Below, one piece after another: positions 253 through 31,191 of a stretch of 38,108 nucleotides of DNA. A program made the position numbers and the translations under genes. The notes under the pieces were generated by a model. That model did no database searches and was not told where the DNA came from. It worked only from the letters and a program-made list of their open reading frames with translations. This DNA comes from a virus. Its lineage: Duplodnaviria > Heunggongvirae > Uroviricota > Caudoviricetes. The DNA lies in the IMG/VR virus record IMGVR_UViG_2563366933_000009, positions 1-38,108 of that record. One strand, written 5' to 3'. Numbering within the stretch: the stretch's first letter is position 1; each line of letters opens with the position of its first letter.

Positions 253-3198
253 TTAGTGCTTCCCTTCTATTAAGTCTAACCTAGCTTTTATTCTTTCTAT
301 TTCTCTGCGCTGCCATGCTGCCTCGATATAGAATAAGAGATCAGGTCTGACCCCCCATCTAGATCCTGCTGGCGTTATTTCAACGCGCTCAATGATGTCT
401 TCCATTACCATCACTGGATTATCATCCTCATCAACAATGATGCTCCCGTCATTATCAGTCAGCGGCATTTCCCTTTGGCCAGTAATGACGTCATCATATA
501 CTGCGGGATAATCGTCATAGCAAAGAAAGGCATAGCGGCATGTTGTGCTTTCTTCTTCCATGAGTCCGTGAGAAATAAGAACATCACGAAGTTGCTGCGC
601 GATTACACCATGATGTATCCTCGCCCCTTCTTCCCCCTTTATAGCGACAGCGTTCAGCCATTTATAAGCGATATACCTGACGTCACCCCAGGCATCCAGC
701 AATGCTTCGTCAGGAGAGACCGGCTCTGTCTTTAATGTTCCGTCACTGGTAACCACAGGATTGGAGCCAAGATAAACTGTCGAGAACCTGTTTCCCGGAC
801 CACCAAGAGCATTTACATTATCAAGATAAGGTTTAACATCTCCGTTCTCAAAAAGATGTTCGAGTGCGTTATATACCGCGCGACGTGGAGTACTGCTTCC
901 GGAACCATGCAACGTTATCATTGCACCATCTGCTGAAGACGTTGTTTCACCGCCGCTAACGATTAATCTCTGAGCGGTAACATCATCAGACGGTACTTTC
1001 TTCGCAATAATGGCGTAATTACCCTCAAGTTTGACTTCCGCGCGAACTTGTCCTGATGTACCTGCATGGACAGTCAGTGACTGGACGGCAACATCATCTG
1101 TGAAATCAACGGGTACAGGAACCGTCCTCACGCCTGACGTCGACATAAAAGTAGGAAGCGTTCTGTTAGGAGTGGCTCCGTAGACAAAATCCCTTGAAAC
1201 AAATTCTTCCTGTTTAATTTTCACCCTGAAACAATACAAATCAGCCGGGTGACCATCGTGAAAATAAGGATATTTTCTGTTGTTATCCCCTATGCTCCAT
1301 GGGTTTAGAAAGTCTTCCCCACCGAAAATGTAGTACAGCCAGTTGTCTTTGATACAAACTGAACCAACACCAACCGCAGAGTTAACTATTCCGCCCTGAT
1401 AAATCTGATCAGTAACATTAACCCACTCTACATTATCCAGACTCCACTCATTGACGTTAACTCTGGTCATAAATGTTCTTGGATAGTTTCCTGCATAACG
1501 GTTATCAGGTTCTCCTCCTTCCCACTCACCAAATGCGCGCTCACTGCCAAAAATAATCAGCTCATCGCCAACTTTGGCAAAAGGAAGGTTTGAGTGATGA
1601 ACATTATTTGGGAAGCGAAGAGAATTCCATGATGTACCTAAATCAGAGCTTCTGTGCAATGAACTACCGGGTTGAGTACTTAATGTCCCCCTGGTCGTCA
1701 GATACAGAATGCCATCATAATATTTTACACATGGCTCAGATGCATTCGCCTCATATTCTGCAGGTATGCGTCTGCGAACAAAGCTACCAGGAGAACCGAA
1801 AGCATCAGAGAAATAGAGTATCCCAAGCTCGCGTGGACCAATATCACCATTATGGTAGCCAACAGCAAAACTGTTATCGCTAATCGTCGCAAAACTGTGA
1901 ATCTCAGTAACAGGAGTGCTTCCGTCAACAAAAGAAGGAATAGTTCCAAGACTGGTTTTTCTCCATGGTGACGAGTGAAATGATGTACCAAAACTCCAGT
2001 ATCTACCCTCGTTATTCTGATCCACATCCTGGGTATTTTGCGTCGTAACTGTAAAAGTATTTTTATCAATAACAGTAGTCACCGTCATATTCCCGGTAAC
2101 ACCTGTAACACCAGAGTTTGAGAAGTTGACAAAATCACCAGCAAATAATCCGTGATCAGTAATGCGAATATAAGCGACTTGCTGATTTGCTGCTTTCGTT
2201 ATACCACCATAAACGCGAAGGCTGCGACTCATTGGGCGATCCCACAACTCTGCAACCTGCAGTTTATTTCCGCTCACAGTCCGCGTCTCAATTACAGCAA
2301 AAAGGCGATTTCTGACAACCCCCATACTCATGCAGTGATAGTTAACTGTGGGATAGTTTTCATGTAAATCTGTAAGCCATTCCGGCGTTGTCCAGGTCTT
2401 CCCGTCATCTCCTGAGCGAACCCATGCAACATGGAGGTTATTTACACCATGACGGTCTCCAGCCATAAAAGGCGCATAGATGACATTGTCATATACAAAC
2501 GTTTTATCCTGCGTCCAGGCGTTGTACCACGGTGTATCTGTAATTTTAAATAACTCTCCCTGGATAAAATCTTCAGAAGCATAAAAAAGAGGCTGGCCCG
2601 GTATTCTCTCAAATAAAAAACGAGCATTTTTAAATCGACTGACATCTGGAAGAGTTGATACTTTAAAAGTAAGCCCTCGCCCATCTATCTTTTCACCACC
2701 TGTTGCAACAGAAAGTAATTCTGATAGAGCTGATGTATCATCATGAACACCATCACCAATAGCCCCCCAACCTCTTACATCATAACTGTCTCTCCATCTT
2801 GCTATCTGAAGTTTTGGGTATTTATTCGCTCCATCTGGGTCTTCTAATTGCTGCCGTAACTGATCAGGATCATACTTCAGCACATTAGGAAAATAGAACT
2901 GCTGTGTACCATACGCATCATAAACAGCCATAGAATGGCCTTGCACGGTTACGAATTTGGCAATCTGTCCGTTATATACCGGATATCCAGCAGCGTTAAT
3001 GATTATTGGTTGCGAAACAGGAATGTGAGAACCGTCTTCGTTCTCTACATAAACCTGAATCTGGTTTTCAGGATTTACAGGGTCAGTGTCAATTTTACCG
3101 ATATAAATTTTGCCATTGGCTACGGCTTTAAAAGAACGAGCCATAGTGAAGAGTTGCGAAGGCATACTTACTACAACATTGGCTGTAATGTCTGTCAT
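253..3198 (-). CDS. Tailspike protein: P22 gp9-type N-terminal head-binding domain fused to a different beta-helix receptor-binding/depolymerase domain and a C-terminal intramolecular-chaperone-like domain
   Basis: 981-aa ORF; N-terminus [11 protein letters not shown]...[12 protein letters not shown]...VLKYDPDQ matches the P22 tailspike head-binding domain; [14 protein letters not shown] motif typical of pectate-lyase-like tailspikes; Shine-Dalgarno TGGAG upstream. Confidence 0.9.
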
Positions 3199-3330: not shown

Positions 3331-3588
3331 ATGATGTACAGCAAATACGATGAGGCGCAGTTCCACTTGAGGCTTACACACGAGTTGCACGCTAAGATTA
3401 AGCAGCGTGCAAAAATGAATAACAGGTCTATCAATTCCGAAATTGTGGCTACGATGGAAGAATCACTCTCCAAACCATCACCTGTAAGCGGGTATCGTGA
3501 TGAAGAAGAGAGGCTGGCCTCATTAATCTCGGAACGAGTAAAAGAAGTTGCGGCTGAAATTCTAAGGAAAGAAAAAACCCGCGATTAA
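3331..3588 (+). CDS. mnt: Mnt-like ribbon-helix-helix repressor (Arc/MetJ family)
   Basis: Internal ATG of track ORF 2935-3588 preceded by GGTGAGG; product (85 aa) has NNRSINSEIV RHH motif and an SKPSPVSGYRDEEERLA segment resembling P22 Mnt. The upstream part of the track ORF is antisense to the tailspike 5' end and was discarded. Confidence 0.75.
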   Translation: MMYSKYDEAQFHLRLTHELHAKIKQRAKMNNRSINSEIVATMEESLSKPSPVSGYRDEEERLASLISERVKEVAAEILRKEKTRD

Positions 3589-3603
3589 GCGGGTTTAGTT
3601 TTC
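3572..3603. terminator. Bidirectional intrinsic terminator between convergent mnt-like and antirepressor genes
   Basis: Stem AACCCGC/GCGGGTT with 6-nt loop, flanked by an A-run on one side and a T-rich tract on the other. Confidence 0.55.
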
Positions 3604-3614
3604 ATTATAAAATG

Positions 3615-4343
3615 TTACGCCACATTTGAGCCATGTAGCAGGTGTTGTAGTGCTTTAACGCCTTCAGAATTGTAACGGAACGCCTCTACCTGTTTGCTGG
3701 AATGCGCCGATTTATCCAGGAAGAACTTCCCGTACTGCTCAGTTTTGAGGTTGTTTGCGTTAGCAATGCGACCAATCTTGTTGGCCGTTACTCCAAGCTG
3801 CTCTGCAACCTCCCCTGCTGAGTAGTAATGCTCTTCTATTGCCGGAAGAGGTATTGCATTAAAACCAACAAGCGGGTTGATTATACTTGCTGCCGCTGTC
3901 TGCTTTGCCTCAGGCGCAAGATTTGGCATCAGATCGAACAGATTGGTAACAGCTTCAACCGTCATTTTCAATGTTCGCGCTTGACGATACTCAACAAGTC
4001 CACTCGCTGATTTACCGCTTTTAATGTGCGCTTCTTGCATACTTTCAAGTTGGTCTACCAGTGAGCGGCGAACGGCTTTTGACTCGCGAGCGGCAACTCG
4101 CAATGCTTGCTTGATTGACATCTCAATGATAACCATCGAAGTTTTGTTCGCTTTTTGCACTACACTTTTTGTGTAGTGCTCTCCATCCAATTCATCTTCA
4201 ATTTTCTCGATGAATTTGTTATTACGAACCTCCGGCTCACCGCACTGTCTACGAGCCTGATTTACCATCTCAAGCAGGCGCTGGCTGTCAATGGTTTTAT
4301 CCGTGACAACGGATCCGATGTTTGCTACATTCTTAAAAGTCAT
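3615..4343 (-). CDS. Antirepressor-like protein, KilAC-type C-terminal domain
   Basis: Start taken at internal Met (MTFKNVANIG) with AAGGAA Shine-Dalgarno; C-terminal region has the HTH-like motif seen in phage antirepressor KilAC domains; lies in the ant position of an immI-like cluster. Confidence 0.65.
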   Translation of the reverse strand: MTFKNVANIGSVVTDKTIDSQRLLEMVNQARRQCGEPEVRNNKFIEKIEDELDGEHYTKSVVQKANKTSMVIIEMSIKQALRVAARESKAVRRSLVDQLESMQEAHIKSGKSASGLVEYRQARTLKMTVEAVTNLFDLMPNLAPEAKQTAAASIINPLVGFNAIPLPAIEEHYYSAGEVAEQLGVTANKIGRIANANNLKTEQYGKFFLDKSAHSSKQVEAFRYNSEGVKALQHLLHGSNVA

Positions 4344-4412
4344 TAGGCATTCCTTATGTGGTAGTAAGGGTGTGACATAGGCCGCCAGCAGCACACTGGC
4401 GGTTTTCTTTTT
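4338..4412 (+). ncRNA. Putative sar-like antisense RNA covering the translation start of the KilAC antirepressor gene
   Basis: Plus-strand promoter-like GTGACA -17 bp- TACATT at about 4303-4331 inside the antirepressor 5' coding region, and a plus-strand intrinsic terminator about 75 nt downstream; no plus-strand gene is served by this terminator. Confidence 0.3.
4382..4412 (+). terminator. Intrinsic terminator on the plus strand (antisense to the ant genes)
   Basis: Stem CCGCCAG/CTGGCGG with 7-nt loop followed by TTTTCTTTTT. Confidence 0.55.
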
Positions 4413-4431: not shown

Positions 4432-5070
4432 TCAATGAATCCATTCCTCGCCGCGCAGTTTTGCCAGCATTGGCTGAGCGTTCTTTACGACAAAATTGTT
4501 GGTATCAAGATTCTTCATTTCACGAAGAAGTGATTTCTTGGTTTCTTCTGACATATAGCGAGTCTCATATGCGATATCGTAAATCCTTCCTGAAAGCTCA
4601 GAACAAATTTGCTTCATTCCTGGGTAGATGTGTTTGCACATTTGTTGACTCTTCTCCATCCACAATTGTAAGTAGCAGAGATTAACCAGTTCTTCGTCAG
4701 TAAACTGTTTTGCAATCGGTGAGCATTCTGCCTGCCGATCCAAAATATCCAGCACCCAGCGGCGGAACTCTTTGGCCTTGGGCGTAGAAGCAAACATCGC
4801 CACCAAGTGAGCGCCTCGGAGCGAGTAAACTCTGACCGATTTGTTACGTAAGCTATTGTTTATTCCGTTGACCTTCATATTGAGGGTCAATGACATTGAG
4901 TCGGAAAATTCGTCAGCATTACGGGCATAAATTTGGCTGATGGCATCAGTTTTTTTATAGCCGAGAGCCTTAGCTAGTTCGGCGGAGGTGAACCAGATAG
5001 ACCCGCCCTCTGTTACAGGGTTAAAAGTGAATCCTTGGAAGTTATAATCTGATTTTGCTACAATATTCAT
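4432..5070 (-). CDS. Bro-N domain antirepressor-like protein
   Basis: Start taken at MNIVAKSDYNFQGF with AAGGAAA Shine-Dalgarno 5 nt upstream; N-terminal motif FQGFTF...IWFTSAELAKALGY is typical of Bro-N domains; immediately downstream of the arc-like gene. Confidence 0.7.
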   Translation of the reverse strand: MNIVAKSDYNFQGFTFNPVTEGGSIWFTSAELAKALGYKKTDAISQIYARNADEFSDSMSLTLNMKVNGINNSLRNKSVRVYSLRGAHLVAMFASTPKAKEFRRWVLDILDRQAECSPIAKQFTDEELVNLCYLQLWMEKSQQMCKHIYPGMKQICSELSGRIYDIAYETRYMSEETKKSLLREMKNLDTNNFVVKNAQPMLAKLRGEEWIH

Positions 5071-5143
5071 GTTAGTTTCCTTGCATACGGTTACTGACAT
5101 AGAGGCCCGGTTTGTGTTCGCGCACTGCCGGGCTTCACTATTT

Positions 5144-5320
5144 TTACTGGGCATTAGCTCTTTCCTCTCTCAGGCTTTTAGCCAGTCGCTGCACAATCGC
5201 AGAGTTGATAGAAATTCCATCCATTTCAGCTACGCGTCTGATCTCCTCCTTCATTCGCGCTGGCAAACGAAGCTGGAAACTCTGACTTTTACGACCACTG
5301 TAAAGAACATCGCTCATCAT
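5144..5320 (-). CDS. arc: Arc-like ribbon-helix-helix repressor
   Basis: 58-aa product from internal Met with GGAGA Shine-Dalgarno; FQLRLPARMKEEIRRVAEMDGISINSAIVQRL matches the Arc/Mnt RHH fold pattern; divergent from an mnt-like gene as in P22 immI. Confidence 0.7.
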   Translation of the reverse strand: MMSDVLYSGRKSQSFQLRLPARMKEEIRRVAEMDGISINSAIVQRLAKSLREERANAQ

Positions 5321-5336
5321 CAATATCTCCGTCATA

Positions 5337-5357
5337 ATGACATCACCATGATGTCAT
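5337..5357. promoter_or_regulatory. 21-bp operator-like palindrome in the arc / mnt-like divergent intergenic region
   Basis: ATGACATCA-CCA-TGATGTCAT, perfect 9-bp inverted arms; a second inverted pair CATTATG ... CATAATG lies just downstream. Confidence 0.5.
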
Positions 5358-5440
5358 GACACCATTATGATGCCATTGCTCATAATGTCAATATGATGCT
5401 ACTGTGTTTTTTATTGCTCATATGCCTTGCGAATAAGAAA

Positions 5441-5692
5441 ATGTCAGAAAAAGACGAATCAAATTTCATAGAAAGATTTACGGTTAGAATGCCTGACGGC
5501 ATGCGTAGTGCTATTGCGGAAAGGGCTAAACGAAACGGTCGATCTATGAACTCAGAGATAGTTCAAATTCTTGAGGATGCGTTATCATATGACGTCTCAT
5601 CAGTAGACAAATCATTAGATCTTAAACAAATAAAATCTTTACTTGATAAAATTTCCAACGAGTTACTGGATAGAATCCCAAAAGACACATAA
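5441..5692 (+). CDS. Second Mnt/Arc-family RHH repressor paralog
   Basis: Internal Met start (MSEKDESNFIERFTVRMPDGMRSAIAERAKRNGRSMNSEIVQILEDAL) with RHH signature RxxNGRSMNSEIV; divergent from arc. Confidence 0.6.
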   Translation: MSEKDESNFIERFTVRMPDGMRSAIAERAKRNGRSMNSEIVQILEDALSYDVSSVDKSLDLKQIKSLLDKISNELLDRIPKDT

Positions 5693-5738
5693 CAAAACAT
5701 TATCATCCGGTGTTCTGCTCAAAACTAAGGAGGTTGGT

Positions 5739-6059
5739 GTGTATATATCGCTATCTACCATTTTTTTCATCTGCTTAGCTATTTGGCTTTTAAGAATATG
5801 GCAGGATTGCTCTGTCAGCCATGCTGCTGCGGTGAGAAATAAAAACGCCCTCATAAAAGAAGCTGAAAACGTTGTTTTATCAATGGATCACCTTTCATGG
5901 ACCGAGATGACTACAGGGCAACAAGAGGTTTATGAGTGTGCGATTGAGCGGTTAAGGCTGCTTAAATCGTACAAAAAGAACCACGCACCCGACTCATTCC
6001 CATTCCTGAAAGAATGGCCGAGATGGTATGACCCGAGAAAAGCAACCATCAACCGCTAA
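5739..6059 (+). CDS. Small single-pass membrane protein, paralog of the cI-linked ORF at 30739-31053; function unknown
   Basis: GTG start 6 nt after AAGGAGG; hydrophobic N-terminus ISLSTIFFICLAIWLL; shares a YECAIERL-centred region and a W-P motif with the ORF at 30739-31053. Confidence 0.6.
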   Translation: MYISLSTIFFICLAIWLLRIWQDCSVSHAAAVRNKNALIKEAENVVLSMDHLSWTEMTTGQQEVYECAIERLRLLKSYKKNHAPDSFPFLKEWPRWYDPRKATINR

Positions 6060-6067
6060 CCAACTTT

Positions 6068-8074
6068 TTACTGCCGGGCTTTCTCACTTGAAGCCTGAAT
6101 TAGAGGTGTAAGAGTTTCAGATACCCGTCTGATCGCTCTATCATAAGCAGTACTTCCTTTTGGTGTGTTTGCTAACTTTAGTAATGCGTTCCTCATCGCG
6201 CGTGACTCATAGCCCCTGCCAGCCATACCGATACCAGCTCCAACTGCCGCAACTTTTGCAAACATTGGATTTGTAACAGACGCAAGAGCTGTTATCAGCG
6301 CTGCTGGACCAGCTACCATTTGCCCTGTTAGTGGGCTTGCGGCAGCAGTAGCTGCCTGTCTAGTGGAATCAAGATATTTCATTATCCCATCAAGCTGTTT
6401 CCCATGCTCTCCTCTGAAGAACGTCTCAGCCTGCTTCCGATTCCTTTTCATTTCATTAATAAACTTCTCAACGCTAAGCTTTCCTGAATCGCTTGTCGCC
6501 TTATCCATTGCACGCTGAACAAGTGCTGCTCTAGCATTTTGACGCCCACTATCATCAAGCAATCGATAAAGTTGCGCCCTTTCCGCTGGGCTTTGGCTGA
6601 ATACTAGTTTAGTGACATCTTCTGGCGTTGTTTTACCACTCTGAATAGCTTTTTGGACACGTGTATTGCTCATCATGTCGTTGAACTTTGCCCAAGAACG
6701 ATCAACACGCGACATGTTTTGCGCTTCCTTCGCACCTAGTTTTGCGCCAACCGCTTTTTTCATGTCTGTTGTGTATGCGTTATAAACAGACTGCGCAGCT
6801 TTCTCCAGCGTATCTCTATCGACCTCGTCAGGTGCTGCCATAAAGCGCTTACGTAAGTTTGTACGGTTTTCTCTAGCTAATTGCAGGTTATTTGGACCGC
6901 TGGTGATGTCATTTCTAAACTGTTGAAGGACAGAAACAGCTGAGCGGTCTTGCGATACTCCTGGGCGAGTTAACTTGGAAATCTGCTCATCAATTGCTTT
7001 CACTGTTCCAGTGATGTCAACAGGAGTATCCCCCATCAAACTGATGATCCTGTCGTACCGCTTGCCAGCAGCCTGAATAAATTGCTGCTGACCACGAGTA
7101 GCTGATTGGTAAAGTTGTGCGTCAGATATTCCACCAACATTATCGCTAAATGTTCTAACTAAATCTTCCCTGGCCTTTTGCTGTGCATTTCTTATCCCAC
7201 CTGTTCCGGCTATTGGGATTCGCTCAGCCATAGCTCGTGCTTGCTTACCAATATTTGTTCCCGGTTCCACAAGATCTGTTGTCATCAGTGGCAAGTTGTT
7301 CTGCTTGGCAAAGTCAATCTGAGCTTGTTTTTCAGGAGCTATCTTACCCATAGCAGAACGAGACACTGCGCTTGCGGTGTTTTCTACACCCTTCAGTACC
7401 CCACCAAGACCAGCAGAAATTGCAGTTTGAACTGGATTAACATTCTCACCGCCAGCGATCTTAGTGGCCCCCTGTAAAGCTAAATCAGTAGCGCCTGATT
7501 TTAGTGTTGCACCTACAACAGACGCAGCTCTACCTGCTGGAGTGAATGCAAGAGCATTTGCCAAGAATGACGTTATATCCTGCGGTGACAAACCAGGCTT
7601 GTTAAGTGCATATTCCCCTGAAGGAAGGGTGACTATGGAATTTCCCTTCTCATCCTTCCGGATTTTCCCGCCAATACTTTGCAGTATTTTCTCCTGTGAA
7701 GCGTCGGAACCAAATAGCTGCCCCAATCCAGCACGCAGCGCATCAGTGCTTAAGCTATTAAGCTCTGGAGCAGACCCAACATTTTGCAGTCTCTCCATTT
7801 CTGGTGTCATTCGGCTTTCACCGGTAACGGCATCGCGCATTGCAGCACCTAAAACAGCCCCTTGCTCAGCAGAGCGATCTAGTCCTTCCTTCTGCTGAGT
7901 GGCAAGCTGTGCATATCCTGATGCAAGTGAGTTGTCTGCTGGCGATTGCTGAACACCTTGTTGTGTTGGTGCTGACTGACCAGCAAAATACTCATCAATG
8001 GCGGTGCCAATATCTTCGGTGCTCGTACCATCAGGGAAGGTAAATGTCTTACCGTTTGCAGTAACTTTCATCAT
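6068..8074 (-). CDS. Ejection (injection) protein, P22 gp16-like
   Basis: 668-aa ORF at the gp16 position in a P22-type gene order; Gly/Ala-rich composition; overlaps the upstream gene stop. Confidence 0.8.
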
Positions 8075-30055: not shown

Positions 30056-30742
30056 ATGGATAAATACGAACAAAGACGACTAAGGCTGATAGAGATAAGA
30101 GACCGATTCTGTAATGGAAAGGCCTCAGAGTTGGCTCGTCGAATAGAAAGGGAACCATCATACGTTTCCAGAATGCTGTATCCGGAAGGAAAAAGCGGAA
30201 AAAAACGCATTGCTGACGATATGATGGAGCTAATTGAAAAATCTTTTAATCTCCCACGCGGATGGATGGACATGCTTGCAGATGGTAAAGCTGGAGCTAC
30301 GGACCATCTTGAGTTTGCGGGTAACGTTCGTGCGGGTTTTGTTCCGGTAATTGGTGAAGCCGTTTTGGGAGTTGATGGCTCAGTGGATATGATTGAATTC
30401 AGATCCGGTTGGTTAAGCATCTACAGCGGCGATAAAGATGCTTACGGTCTGAAGGTTAAGGGTGACAGCATGTGGCCAAGGATTCAGTCAGGAGAATATG
30501 TTGTTATTGAACCAAATACGCCAGTACATCCAGGTGATGAAGTCTTTGTAAGGACCAAAGACGGTCACAACATGATAAAGATCATGAACAAAACAAGAGA
30601 CGGTGATTATCAGTTTAGTAGCATAAACAGTGATCACCGCCCAATCACTCTTCCTGTTGAAGAAGTTGATAAAATGCATTTTGTTTCAGCTATTGTGAAA
30701 CACACCAGGTACGTAGACCAGGACGATCTGCCAAAAGTTTGA
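30056..30742 (+). CDS. cI: CI-like prophage repressor (HTH plus S24 LexA-like autopeptidase domain)
   Basis: 228 aa; C-terminal GDSMWPRI...GEYVVIEP...GDEVFVR...KIM signature of S24 peptidase-type repressors. Confidence 0.9.
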   Translation: MDKYEQRRLRLIEIRDRFCNGKASELARRIEREPSYVSRMLYPEGKSGKKRIADDMMELIEKSFNLPRGWMDMLADGKAGATDHLEFAGNVRAGFVPVIGEAVLGVDGSVDMIEFRSGWLSIYSGDKDAYGLKVKGDSMWPRIQSGEYVVIEPNTPVHPGDEVFVRTKDGHNMIKIMNKTRDGDYQFSSINSDHRPITLPVEEVDKMHFVSAIVKHTRYVDQDDLPKV

Positions 30743-31053
30743 GGATAAAGCAGCAAATGTTTATACCCGGCATAGTAGTCGCTGTTGTAATCATCTGCTT
30801 CATATGGGCAAAGTTATCTCCTGTAAGCTCTAAGCATACAGCTGAACTCATGAGGAAGAAGCATCTTATACATGAGGCAGAATCGATAATTAAAAAGTTC
30901 AAAGGCATGTCATACGACGACATGTCATCAGAGCAGATTGCTATGTATAAATGCGCCATTGAGCGCCTTGACTACTTAAACGGACTCAAACCCAAACACA
31001 CCCCAGTAGAATCAAAATTGCCGCAATGGCCAAGCAATCCAAATAGCTTCTGA
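30739..31053 (+). CDS. Small single-pass membrane protein co-transcribed with cI (Rex-position gene), paralog of 5739-6059; function unknown
   Basis: ATGA-type overlap with the cI stop; hydrophobic N-terminus IPGIVVAVVIICFIWA; YKCAIERL motif shared with 5739-6059; followed by an intrinsic terminator. Confidence 0.6.
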   Translation: MRIKQQMFIPGIVVAVVIICFIWAKLSPVSSKHTAELMRKKHLIHEAESIIKKFKGMSYDDMSSEQIAMYKCAIERLDYLNGLKPKHTPVESKLPQWPSNPNSF

Positions 31054-31064
31054 CATCTCCTTTC

Positions 31065-31088
31065 AGCCCGCAAAGCGGGCTTTTTTAT
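31065..31088 (+). terminator. Intrinsic terminator ending the cI operon
   Basis: Stem AGCCCGC/GCGGGCT with AAA loop followed by TTTTTTAT. Confidence 0.6.
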
Positions 31089-31106: not shown

Positions 31107-31191
31107 TTACCTGAAAATTCAATCAGGTAAACTCTCACATCAATTTTATTTACCTACAGGTATAGACAGAGGTTTTACCTGTAGGTATATT
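31107..31191. promoter_or_regulatory. OL operator region and PL-like promoter
   Basis: Dyad sites TTACCTGA..TCAGGTAA, TTACCTACAGGTA and TTACCTGTAGGTA of the same family as OR; -35 TAGACA, 17-bp spacer, -10 TATATT reading toward N. Confidence 0.55.

What the first reader, a model, noticed from the sequence alone, without database searches (positions are those of the whole stretch)
5441..6059. Second copy of the small membrane protein, again directly downstream of a repressor (Mnt-like RHH)
The ORF at 5739-6059 is homologous to the cI-linked ORF (shared TM N-terminus, YECAIERL vs YKCAIERL, W-P motif near the C-terminus) and sits downstream of the second Mnt-like gene, in the position of P22 sieA. 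Two diverged paralogs each wired to a lysogeny repressor suggests a selected host-protection or exclusion role.
Basis: partly seen in the sequence, partly recalled or inferred. Interest (0 to 1): 0.75.

Follow-up and report, generated by a model that had tools for sequence, protein, structure and literature searches.

The report
Small membrane protein in sieA slot
A P22-like E. coli prophage carries two diverged copies of an uncharacterised 100-residue membrane-anchored protein, one in the exact slot where phage P22 keeps its superinfection-exclusion gene sieA and one behind the cI repressor, which makes this a plausible but untested new family of prophage host-protection proteins.

Summary
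ORF 5739-6059 (+, GTG start, strong ribosome-binding site) is a real gene. It is a paralog of the ORF behind cI at 30757-31053 (BLASTP E=3e-14; both match phrog_10450, function unknown).

The family is tiny: about 13 clusters among 1.84 billion representative proteins. It has no Pfam, NCBIfam or PADLOC match and no structural neighbour. All members have one N-terminal transmembrane helix followed by a helical hairpin of about 80 residues, predicted to be cytoplasmic.

The cI-linked copy always follows the same type of cI repressor. The target copy is different. Its constant partner is the 3' end of injection gene 16, while the upstream side varies. Mnt is directly upstream only here and in two other loci.

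The ORF starts behind the same 19-nt leader (AACTAAGGAGGTTGGTGTG) that precedes P22 sieA, hkcB and at least nine other unrelated cargo genes, most of them membrane or secreted proteins. It is therefore one cassette at a cassette-exchange site.

It is not a SieA homolog. No other genome or viral contig examined carries both copies, so the pairing looks like a rare mosaic and not a selected duo.

An exclusion or defence role fits the location and architecture but is unproven.

The parts
5739..6059 (+). Target gene (called famA in this report): 106 aa, GTG start, phrog_10450, subfamily found next to gene 16
   Evidence: AlphaFold2 mean pLDDT 88.6, helices 5-48, 59-77 and 99-103.
5745..5801 (+). 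Codons 3-21: the only hydrophobic, transmembrane-type segment
   Evidence: Kyte-Doolittle mean 2.05, next best window 0.29. No K/R before it and 2-6 K/R in the 15 residues after it in all 14 members, which by the positive-inside rule predicts N-out/C-in. This topology is inferred.
5723..5741 (+). 19-nt cassette leader AACTAAGGAGGTTGGTGTG (ribosome-binding site plus GTG start), shared with P22 sieA and other cargo genes
   Evidence: Identical in front of P22 sieA, epsilon34 gp14 (hkcB) and the MNCRE44 cargo gene. At least 120 exact matches in IMG/VR, followed by at least 12 unrelated ORF families. The mosaic breakpoint in E. coli genomes lies at about 5716-5721.
5441..5692 (+). Mnt-like ribbon-helix-helix gene, 46 nt upstream of the target ORF with no hairpin between them
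   Evidence: Pfam Arc 1.6e-17. 55% identity over 38 aa to the P22 Mnt N-terminal domain. No terminator-like site between the two genes.
5364..5397 (.). Overlapping divergent promoter-like sites: Pant-like on the minus strand (5391-5364, 11/12 match) and Pmnt-like on the plus strand (5370-5397, 9/12 match)
   Evidence: The layout matches the annotated P22 Pant/Pmnt arrangement. Promoter function is inferred.
5337..5357 (.). Operator-like palindrome ATGACATCA-CCA-TGATGTCAT between arc and the Mnt-like gene
   Evidence: Read directly from the sequence.
6068..8074 (-). Gene 16-type injection protein, convergent, ending 8 nt after the target ORF's stop
   Evidence: Its 3' third occurs in 57 E. coli genomes, the same number as famA. 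A convergent gp16 follows the family member in the 24 IMG/VR loci and in all but two (L008, L014) of the other loci examined.
30056..30742 (+). cI repressor (S24 peptidase type), upstream partner of the paralog
   Evidence: Pfam Peptidase_S24 1.4e-17. Same arrangement in mEp043.
30757..31053 (+). Paralog (called famB in this report): 98 aa, 97% identical to mEp043 gp49, in the lambda rexAB position
   Evidence: AlphaFold2 mean pLDDT 77 with the same helix pattern.
31065..31087 (+). Intrinsic terminator that ends the cI-famB unit, upstream of the operator-like repeats, a PL-like site and N
   Evidence: Present after famB in all 28 IMG/VR loci.

Best explanation
ORF 5739-6059 encodes a small single-pass inner-membrane protein: a transmembrane helix at residues 2-21 and a helical hairpin domain of about 80 residues, predicted to face the cytoplasm. 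It is one of many interchangeable cargo cassettes at the sieA slot of P22-like prophages. That slot is bounded by a conserved ribosome-binding-site and start-codon leader on one side and by the stop codon of injection gene 16 on the other.

In this prophage it is most likely transcribed together with the Mnt-like repressor from the Pmnt-like promoter, and so would be expressed in the lysogen. Its paralog is expressed with cI from the maintenance promoter, in the slot that holds rexAB in lambda.

I think the most likely function is protection of the lysogen against incoming phages at the inner membrane. It would act as a functional analog of SieA, not a homolog, interfering with the gp16/gp20 DNA-delivery conduit or its exit.

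Shown here: the gene is real and constrained, the paralogy, the membrane anchor, both slot positions, and the shared leader. Inferred: topology, expression in the lysogen, and the exclusion function and its target.
For: Real, constrained gene.

Paralogy and family assignment.

Architecture: a single N-terminal transmembrane segment with a K/R-rich C-terminal flank in 14 of 14 members, and a confident helical hairpin model.

Exact sieA slot: identical 19-nt leader with P22 sieA. [quoted passage not shown]

No SieA homolog in the loci where cargo genes were checked: BLAST and the FxRYPxEA motif were both negative, so the two look like alternative occupants.

The cassette census at this leader (membrane, secreted or soluble judged by eye from the sequences, not computed): most families look membrane or secreted, including sieA itself, and one is soluble.

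The paralog sits between cI and N, a known hotspot for prophage defence genes such as rexAB and bstA (PMC8585504), and is followed by a terminator.

famB has diverged much faster than its repressor: 42-43% identity against 84-85% for cI.

famA is linked 1:1 with one gp16 lineage.

There is no hairpin between the Mnt-like gene and the ORF here.
Against: There are no functional data of any kind.

There is no homology to SieA (hhalign probability 0.4%), no match to any PADLOC defence model, and no structural neighbour.

The architecture differs from SieA, which is multi-pass. If the C-terminal domain is cytoplasmic, it is not obvious how it would block a conduit that spans the periplasm.

The slot also holds secreted and soluble cargo, so position alone does not dictate an exclusion function.

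In many relatives no convincing promoter was found upstream, and some have hairpins or opposite-strand genes between mnt and the ORF. Expression in the lysogen is therefore inferred only for this window.

The linkage to gp16 could be plain adjacency: hkcB and sieA occur with several gp16 types.
Confidence: 0.4

Rival explanations
1. It is a phage-defence protein that works after DNA entry. A membrane-anchored abortive-infection effector or sensor would collapse membrane function when a superinfecting phage is detected, as proposed for RexB.
For: The paralog occupies the rexAB/bstA slot behind cI (PMC8585504). The protein has a membrane anchor and a cytoplasmic helical domain that could sense cytoplasmic phage products. 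It diverges faster than its neighbours.
Against: No PADLOC model matched at E<=10. There is no partner sensor gene: famB is the only gene between cI and the terminator, and famA has no conserved same-strand partner. A single transmembrane helix gives no evidence of a channel.
Confidence: 0.17
2. It is a lysogenic-conversion factor unrelated to phage defence. A small membrane protein would modulate a host inner-membrane transporter, sensor kinase or protease, or host fitness or virulence.
For: The slot holds very diverse envelope cargo, including secreted proteins and a Rap1a-like T6SS-immunity-type protein in related immI arrays. Many small bacterial membrane proteins act as regulators of larger membrane proteins (general knowledge). 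The carriers include pathogenic E. coli lineages.
Against: In every locus with informative flanking sequence, the family was found in prophage slots or next to phage injection genes. It shows strict long-term linkage to injection gene 16 or to cI. The divergence is rapid, which is more typical of a phage-host arms race.
Confidence: 0.2
3. It serves the phage's own gene 16 module. For example, it could protect the producing cell from its own membrane-inserting gp16, or assist or regulate injection, and it would be inherited with gp16 for that reason.
For: famA and this gp16 lineage are linked 1:1 in 57 E. coli genomes, in 24 of 24 IMG/VR loci, and in diverged relatives, with roughly parallel divergence.
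Against: The gene lies on the opposite strand to the late operon and faces convergent late transcription. The paralog famB sits in mEp043, which is classified in a different genus (Aguilavirus) from P22-like phages (Lederbergvirus); whether mEp043 has a gp16 homolog was not checked. Other cassettes at the same leader, hkcB and sieA, pair with two or three gp16 types, so adjacency is enough to explain the linkage.
Confidence: 0.08
4. It is a conserved but non-functional or untranslated ORF, that is, an annotation artefact.
For: The protein is short and has no known domain. PGAP leaves the cI-linked paralog unannotated in 49 of 52 E. coli genomes.
Against: Amino-acid identity exceeds nucleotide identity, and synonymous sites are saturated while dN is 0.23-0.26. 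Close alleles differ mostly by synonymous changes, and the ribosome-binding site and start codon are conserved with ATG/GTG swaps. There are 8 invariant and 6 nearly invariant alignment columns across relatives that are 30-77% identical to the target. The AlphaFold2 model is confident from only 13 sequences.
Confidence: 0.03

Closest known systems
P22 SieA (phrog_7745), an inner-membrane superinfection-exclusion protein
   Same: Same slot to the nucleotide: convergent with and abutting gene 16, and behind the identical leader AACTAAGGAGGTTGGTGTG. Both are inner-membrane-type proteins encoded by a prophage. SieA was absent from the loci whose cargo genes were checked.
   Different: No sequence homology (hhalign probability 0.4%). 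106 aa with one transmembrane segment, against 164 aa and multi-pass for SieA. It lacks the FxRYPxEAxxFNK motif. SieA has its own annotated promoter. Function has been demonstrated only for SieA (PMC10883804).
HkcB of HK620, CUS-3 and epsilon34 (phrog_5962, function unknown)
   Same: Same slot and, in epsilon34, the same leader; CUS-3 has one mismatch. Almost the same size (107 aa), with a hydrophobic N-terminal stretch from about residue 2 (read from the sequence); the rest was not modelled.
   Different: No detectable homology, even profile against profile (probability 2.5%). HkcB is found with two or three gp16 types, whereas famA has been found with one lineage only.
mEp043 gp49 (YP_007111549, hypothetical protein)
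   Same: 97% identical to the cI-linked paralog and in the same position, between cI and PL/N. It belongs to the same family as the target ORF.
   Different: Only about 37% identical to the target ORF. It lies in a lambdoid phage of a different genus (Aguilavirus) and in a different slot.
Lambda RexAB and BTP1 BstA (defence genes in the cI-N slot)
   Same: The paralog occupies the same slot, co-oriented with cI and ended by a terminator (PMC8585504).
   Different: No PADLOC defence model matched. It is a single small gene, not a two-gene system or a large DNA-binding protein.
HK97 gp15 (a YebO-like small inner-membrane exclusion protein)
   Same: A small inner-membrane protein expressed from a prophage moron and thought to block DNA entry (PMC3594210).
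   Different: Different genomic slot and phage type. No Pfam family matched the target at E<=1 apart from one sub-threshold hit to an unrelated domain. gp15 itself was not compared directly.

Membership tests
phrog_10450 (unknown function) | Full-length match to the family HMM | tested here: met
   E=7.1e-52 over residues 1-103 for the target and 7.8e-55 over residues 1-98 for the paralog.
SieA (phrog_7745) | Sequence homology to SieA types A, B or C | tested here: not met
   hhalign of the family profile against P22 SieA gave probability 0.4%. Only phrog_10450 matched the target. Types B and C were not compared directly.
SieA (phrog_7745) | Multi-pass membrane topology and the conserved motif FxRYPxEAxxFNK | tested here: not met
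   The target has one hydrophobic segment only, and the motif is absent from the target sequence. The defining features are taken from PMC10883804.
SieA (phrog_7745) | Location between genes 16 and 9 of a P22-like prophage, abutting gene 16 | tested here: met
   The leader is identical to that of P22 sieA.
SieA (phrog_7745) | Blocks DNA injection by P22-like phages, with escape mutations in gp16 and gp20 | not testable with these tools
   This needs plating, K+ efflux and escape-mutant experiments.
HkcB (phrog_5962) | Sequence homology | tested here: not met
   Profile-profile probability 2.5%. HkcB matches phrog_5962 and not phrog_10450.
Known anti-phage defence systems (PADLOC-DB v2) | Match to any defence-protein model | tested here: not met
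   No family matched at E<=10 for either paralog.
Moron / lysogenic-conversion cassette | An independent insertion bounded by mosaic junctions, variable between otherwise related phages | tested here: met
   Breakpoint at about 5716-5721. At least 8 upstream architectures. At least 12 alternative cargo families behind the same leader.
Moron / lysogenic-conversion cassette | Expressed from the repressed prophage | tested here: inconclusive
   In this window the ORF lies 46 nt after the Mnt-like gene with no terminator, and a Pmnt-like site is present. No transcript data are available, and promoter scans in related loci were uninformative.
Lipoprotein or cleaved secreted protein | A lipobox, or a positively charged n-region with an AxA cleavage site | tested here: not met
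   No K/R before the hydrophobic segment in 13 of 14 members. The cysteine inside the segment is not conserved and has no lipobox context. No dedicated predictor was available.

The most novel reading that the evidence does not exclude
phrog_10450 is a previously unrecognised family of single-pass inner-membrane superinfection-exclusion proteins. It has colonised both canonical prophage-expressed slots, the sieA slot and the cI-N slot. The copy next to gene 16 co-evolves with, and acts on, one lineage of gp16 injection proteins. More broadly, the sieA slot would be a cassette-exchange site defined by a universal 19-nt leader, through which P22-like phages shuffle at least a dozen envelope-acting protection genes.
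Probability: 0.3. Interest if true: 0.7.

Novelty: new variant of a known kind. Interest (0 to 1): 0.55.

Why it matters
About two thirds of sequenced P22-like phages lack sieA (PMC10883804), and what fills that slot in them is mostly unannotated.

This work shows the slot is a precise cassette site behind one shared leader. One cassette family, phrog_10450, also has a paralog in the repressor operon of lambdoid prophages. Together these give a short, concrete list of candidate envelope-level protection genes that can be tested with the existing P22, CUS-3 and HK620 hybrid-phage systems.

If famA excludes phages through gp16, it would be a second, structurally unrelated probe of how the ejection-protein conduit crosses the inner membrane. 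That question is still open.

Tried and rejected
- **Homology to SieA:** rejected.
- **Homology to HkcB:** rejected.
- **Known families:** Pfam, NCBIfam and PADLOC gave nothing above threshold.
- **Genome scan:** The search for related loci on genome contigs with the broad alignment failed because no stretch was conserved enough. It was not repeated, because IMG/VR and the E. coli genomes answered the question.
- **Wider relatives:** the exhaustive profile search found about 13 clusters with a full or partial family-type match; the only other hits were local matches in two much longer proteins (676 and 4419 aa).
- **Lipoprotein or cleaved signal peptide:** considered and rejected from the sequence.
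- **Long TTG ORF 5643-6059:** rejected as the true start.
- **Promoters upstream of famA in other loci:** promoter scans were uninformative.
- **RNA families:** Rfam found none anywhere in the window.
- **Literature:** accession numbers and the PHROG id appear in no searchable paper.
- **Selected co-occurrence of the two paralogs:** rejected. There is no overlap among E. coli genomes or IMG/VR contigs, and about 0.5 shared genomes would be expected by chance.

Full report
**What the window is**

The window is a P22-like (Lederbergvirus-type) E. coli prophage, closest to CUS-3: 67% of bases 1-25000 match at 95.9% identity. The late operon runs on the minus strand.

The region around the finding reads as follows:
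- endosialidase-type tailspike, 253-3198 (-)
- full-length Mnt-like gene, 3337-3588 (+)
- two ant-like genes, 3615-4394 and 4432-5154 (-)
- arc, 5144-5335 (-)
- a second Mnt-like ribbon-helix-helix gene, 5441-5692 (+)
- the target ORF, 5739-6059 (+)
- a gene 16-type injection protein, 6068-8074 (-)

This matches the order in P22: 16, sieA, (orf59a), mnt, arc, ant, 9.

**Check of the observation**

- Its start is the GTG at 5739, 5 nt after TAAGGAGG. Relatives start at the same codon with ATG or GTG and keep the ribosome-binding site. The 138-aa TTG ORF listed mechanically is therefore not the gene.
- BLASTP against the ORF behind cI (30757-31053) gives 37% identity over 70 residues, E=3e-14.
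- Both proteins match phrog_10450, a family of unknown function, over their full length at E=7e-52 and 8e-55.

Coding constraint is clear.
- Against relatives from other contigs, amino-acid identity (67-71%) is equal to or higher than nucleotide identity (64-67%).
- dN is 0.23-0.26 while synonymous sites are saturated.
- Close alleles differ by 3-4 synonymous changes to 1 non-synonymous.

**The protein**

- All 14 members examined have one hydrophobic segment at residues 2-21 and no second one.
- There is no K/R before the segment in 13 of 14 members, and 2-6 K/R in the 15 residues after it. By the positive-inside rule this predicts an N-out/C-in single-pass protein with a cytoplasmic C-terminal domain. 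This is an inference; no dedicated topology predictor was available.
- AlphaFold2 gives a confident model for the target (mean pLDDT 88.6): one long helix at 5-48 (transmembrane plus juxtamembrane), a second helix at 59-77, an ordered extended segment that carries the W-P motif, and a short terminal helix.
- The paralog gives the same helix pattern at mean pLDDT 77.
- Foldseek against PDB and BFVD found nothing significant.
- Pfam, NCBIfam and PADLOC gave no match above threshold.
- An exhaustive profile search of 1.84 billion representative proteins found only about 13 true clusters. The word-based searches found 14 and 5 clusters at 90% identity; every source name they carry is enterobacterial (E. 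coli, E. fergusonii, Salmonella), and most clusters carry no name.

The family is real, small and uncharacterised. Its accession numbers and PHROG id appear in no searchable paper.

**Where family members sit: two loci, both conserved**

Subfamily B, the cI-linked copy:
- In mEp043 (gp49, 97% identical) it lies between cI and PL/N, exactly where lambda has rexAB.
- All 28 IMG/VR loci show cro, cI, famB, a terminator, then N.
- Two diverged relatives (42-43% identical) also lie 3-4 nt after an S24 cI.
- In those two loci cI is 84-85% identical to the window's cI. famB has therefore diverged far faster than the repressor it travels with.
- The cI-N interval is a recognised hotspot for prophage defence genes such as rexAB and bstA (PMC8585504).

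Subfamily A, the target:
- It abuts the 3' end of a gp16 homolog, convergently, in phage N7, in two annotated E. coli prophages, in seven of the nine contigs recovered for diverged relatives (36-71% identical; the exceptions, L008 and L014, are described below) and in 24 of 24 IMG/VR loci.
- The upstream side is variable. Mnt is directly upstream only in this window, in E. coli KSC207 and in L006.
- Elsewhere there are one or two unrelated same-strand ORFs in between (the N7 type, L007, L015, L017), opposite-strand genes in between (the A3019 type, L009), no Mnt at all (L012), or no immI genes at all, with the order tailspike, famA, gp16 (L019).
- In E. coli genomes the similarity breaks at about 5716-5721, just 5' of the ribosome-binding site.
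- One member (L008) sits in an odd context, next to gp7- and gp20-like genes and T6SS genes.
- One more member (P0020, locus L014) was recovered only on a 569-bp contig, too short to show its neighbours.

**The slot is a cassette site**

The 19 nt that include the ribosome-binding site and the GTG start (AACTAAGGAGGTTGGTGTG, 5723-5741) are identical in front of four unrelated genes:
- P22 sieA itself
- epsilon34 gp14 (hkcB)
- the cargo gene of E. coli MNCRE44
- famA

CUS-3 hkcB has one mismatch.

The ORFs that start at that GTG fall into at least 12 unrelated families:

| Cassette family | Loci |
|---|---|
| hkcB type | 35 |
| secreted protein of about 122 aa | 16 |
| 62-aa membrane protein | 12 |
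| sieA | 11 |
| famA | 9 |
| 75-aa membrane protein | 9 |
| 140-aa soluble protein | 8 |
| 116-aa multi-pass membrane protein | 6 |
| 99-aa secreted protein | 5 |
| 149-aa single-pass membrane protein | 4 |
| 68-aa secreted protein | 2 |
| 42-aa membrane protein | 1 |

The membrane, secreted and soluble labels in this table are my reading of the N-terminal and hydrophobic stretches by eye; no topology predictor was run on these proteins.

- Most of these families look like membrane or secreted proteins.
- Where a convergent gp16 was detected downstream, the cassette ends 4-29 nt from its stop, with one exception at 407 nt; for 21 loci, including all tm75 and sec99 loci, none of the reference gp16 types matched.
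- The target ORF is therefore a replacement of the sieA coding sequence at the sieA start codon.
- It is not a SieA homolog (hhalign probability 0.4%; one transmembrane segment instead of several; no FxRYPxEA motif).
- It is not an HkcB homolog either (profile-profile probability 2.5%), although HkcB is almost the same size and also begins with a hydrophobic stretch.
- None of the other cargo genes in the famA loci that were checked is SieA-like.

**Linkage to gene 16**

- In complete E. coli genomes, famA occurs in 57 of 5426, and the 3' third of this gp16 allele also occurs in 57; wherever both searches list the same genome the two matches lie 2-3 bp apart.
- Among the leader-scan loci, famA is found only with window-type gp16 (8 of 8). 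hkcB pairs with two or three gp16 types and sieA with two.
- In diverged relatives, gp16 identity to the window's protein runs 85, 66, 63 and 35%, against famA identities of 67, 70, 71 and 41%.
- This fits long co-inheritance and could reflect a functional link. However, the genes are 8 nt apart, so adjacency alone may explain it.

**Do the two paralogs travel together?**

No.
- famB is in 52 and famA in 57 of 5426 E. coli genomes, with no accession in common.
- About 0.5 shared genomes would be expected by chance.
- None of the 24 famA contigs and 28 famB contigs in IMG/VR coincide.
- The double carriage in this window is a rare mosaic. It gives no evidence that the pair is selected.

**Expression**

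- In this window the Mnt-like gene ends 46 nt before the GTG, with no hairpin in between.
- Overlapping divergent promoter-like sites and a 9-3-9 palindrome lie between arc and the Mnt-like gene, as at P22 Pant/Pmnt.
- Co-transcription with the Mnt-like gene in the lysogen is therefore likely here, but it is inferred.
- P22 sieA has its own annotated promoter just upstream of the shared leader. In the window that stretch is replaced by the end of the Mnt-like gene.
- Promoter scans in other famA loci were uninformative.
- famB is co-oriented with cI, starts 14 nt after it, and is followed by a strong terminator.

**Interpretation**

What is shown:
- a real, constrained, membrane-anchored protein family with two subfamilies
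- each subfamily fixed in a classical prophage-expressed slot
- the target sitting exactly in the sieA cassette site

What is inferred:
- the topology
- expression in the lysogen
- the function

The most likely function is protection of the lysogen at the inner membrane. The protein would be a SieA analog acting on DNA delivery by gp16/gp20-type conduits. I put this at about 0.4, or about 0.55-0.6 for any phage-defence role.

The rivals are a post-entry abortive-infection role, a lysogenic-conversion role unrelated to phages, a role serving the phage's own gp16 module, and a non-functional ORF, which is essentially excluded.

**Verdict**

- The finding is an uncharacterised variant of a known kind, a prophage moron or exclusion-type cassette.
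- It has a clear experimental path, using the system already published for SieA (PMC10883804).

Noticed in passing
window 5723-5741; loci L005, L013, L018, L071, L072-L191: The 19-nt leader AACTAAGGAGGTTGGTGTG precedes at least 12 unrelated cargo gene families at the gene 16-proximal slot of P22-like phages, including sieA and hkcB. This looks like a universal boundary sequence for cassette exchange. I found no description of it in the papers I read.
   Followed up: partly
window 3337-3588, 5144-5335, 5441-5692, 3615-4394, 4432-5154: The immI region is unusually elaborate. It has three ribbon-helix-helix genes: a full-length Mnt-like gene next to the tailspike with a bidirectional terminator at 3575-3596, arc, and a second Mnt-like gene that shares only the N-terminal domain with P22 Mnt. 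It also has two tandem antirepressor-like genes.
   Followed up: partly
window 30757-31053 and its E. coli genome matches: RefSeq/PGAP leaves the cI-linked paralog unannotated in 49 of 52 complete E. coli genomes, although the gene is conserved and has a terminator.
   Followed up: no
L005 4440-4829 (E. coli MNCRE44): The annotated 122-aa cargo ORF probably starts 21 nt further upstream, at the leader GTG. That start adds residues (VKQFLTA...) that make a signal-peptide-like N-terminus, so the RefSeq start looks truncated.
   Followed up: partly
window 30056-31053 compared with L010 and L011: cI is 84-85% identical between these loci and the operator-like repeats look alike, yet famB is only 42-43% identical. 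The accessory gene evolves much faster than the immunity module that carries it.
   Followed up: partly
L018 6604-6927 (CUS-3 hkcB); L071 2659-2982 (epsilon34 gp14): HkcB is almost the same length as the target protein, also begins with V/M-Y followed by a hydrophobic stretch, and occupies the same slot, but shows no detectable homology. It could be convergent or diverged beyond recognition.
   Followed up: yes
L015 4641-4988; L009 963-1280; L003 3438-3938; L017 4528-4989: Other genes in the Mnt-to-gene 16 arrays of related prophages are also envelope proteins. They include a Rap1a-like (T6SS-immunity-type) protein, small signal-peptide proteins, and coiled-coil proteins with one hydrophobic segment, C-terminal in L007 and L017 and central in L003.
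   Followed up: no
L008 5975-6319: One family member lies outside both canonical slots. It sits next to gp7-like and truncated gp20-like genes on one side and T6SS Hcp/Tlde1 genes on the other, possibly at the edge of a decayed prophage.
   Followed up: no
window 253-3198: The tailspike combines the P22-type head-binding N-terminus with an endosialidase-like body carrying Asp-box motifs, as in the K1-specific phage CUS-3. The host is therefore probably a K1-capsulated E. coli.
   Followed up: no
window 31107-31191: Operator-like repeats (TTACCTG...CAGGTAA, TTACCTACAGGTATA, TTACCTGTAGGTATA) overlap a PL-like promoter directly after the famB terminator. Closely similar repeats occur in L010 and L011.
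   Followed up: no
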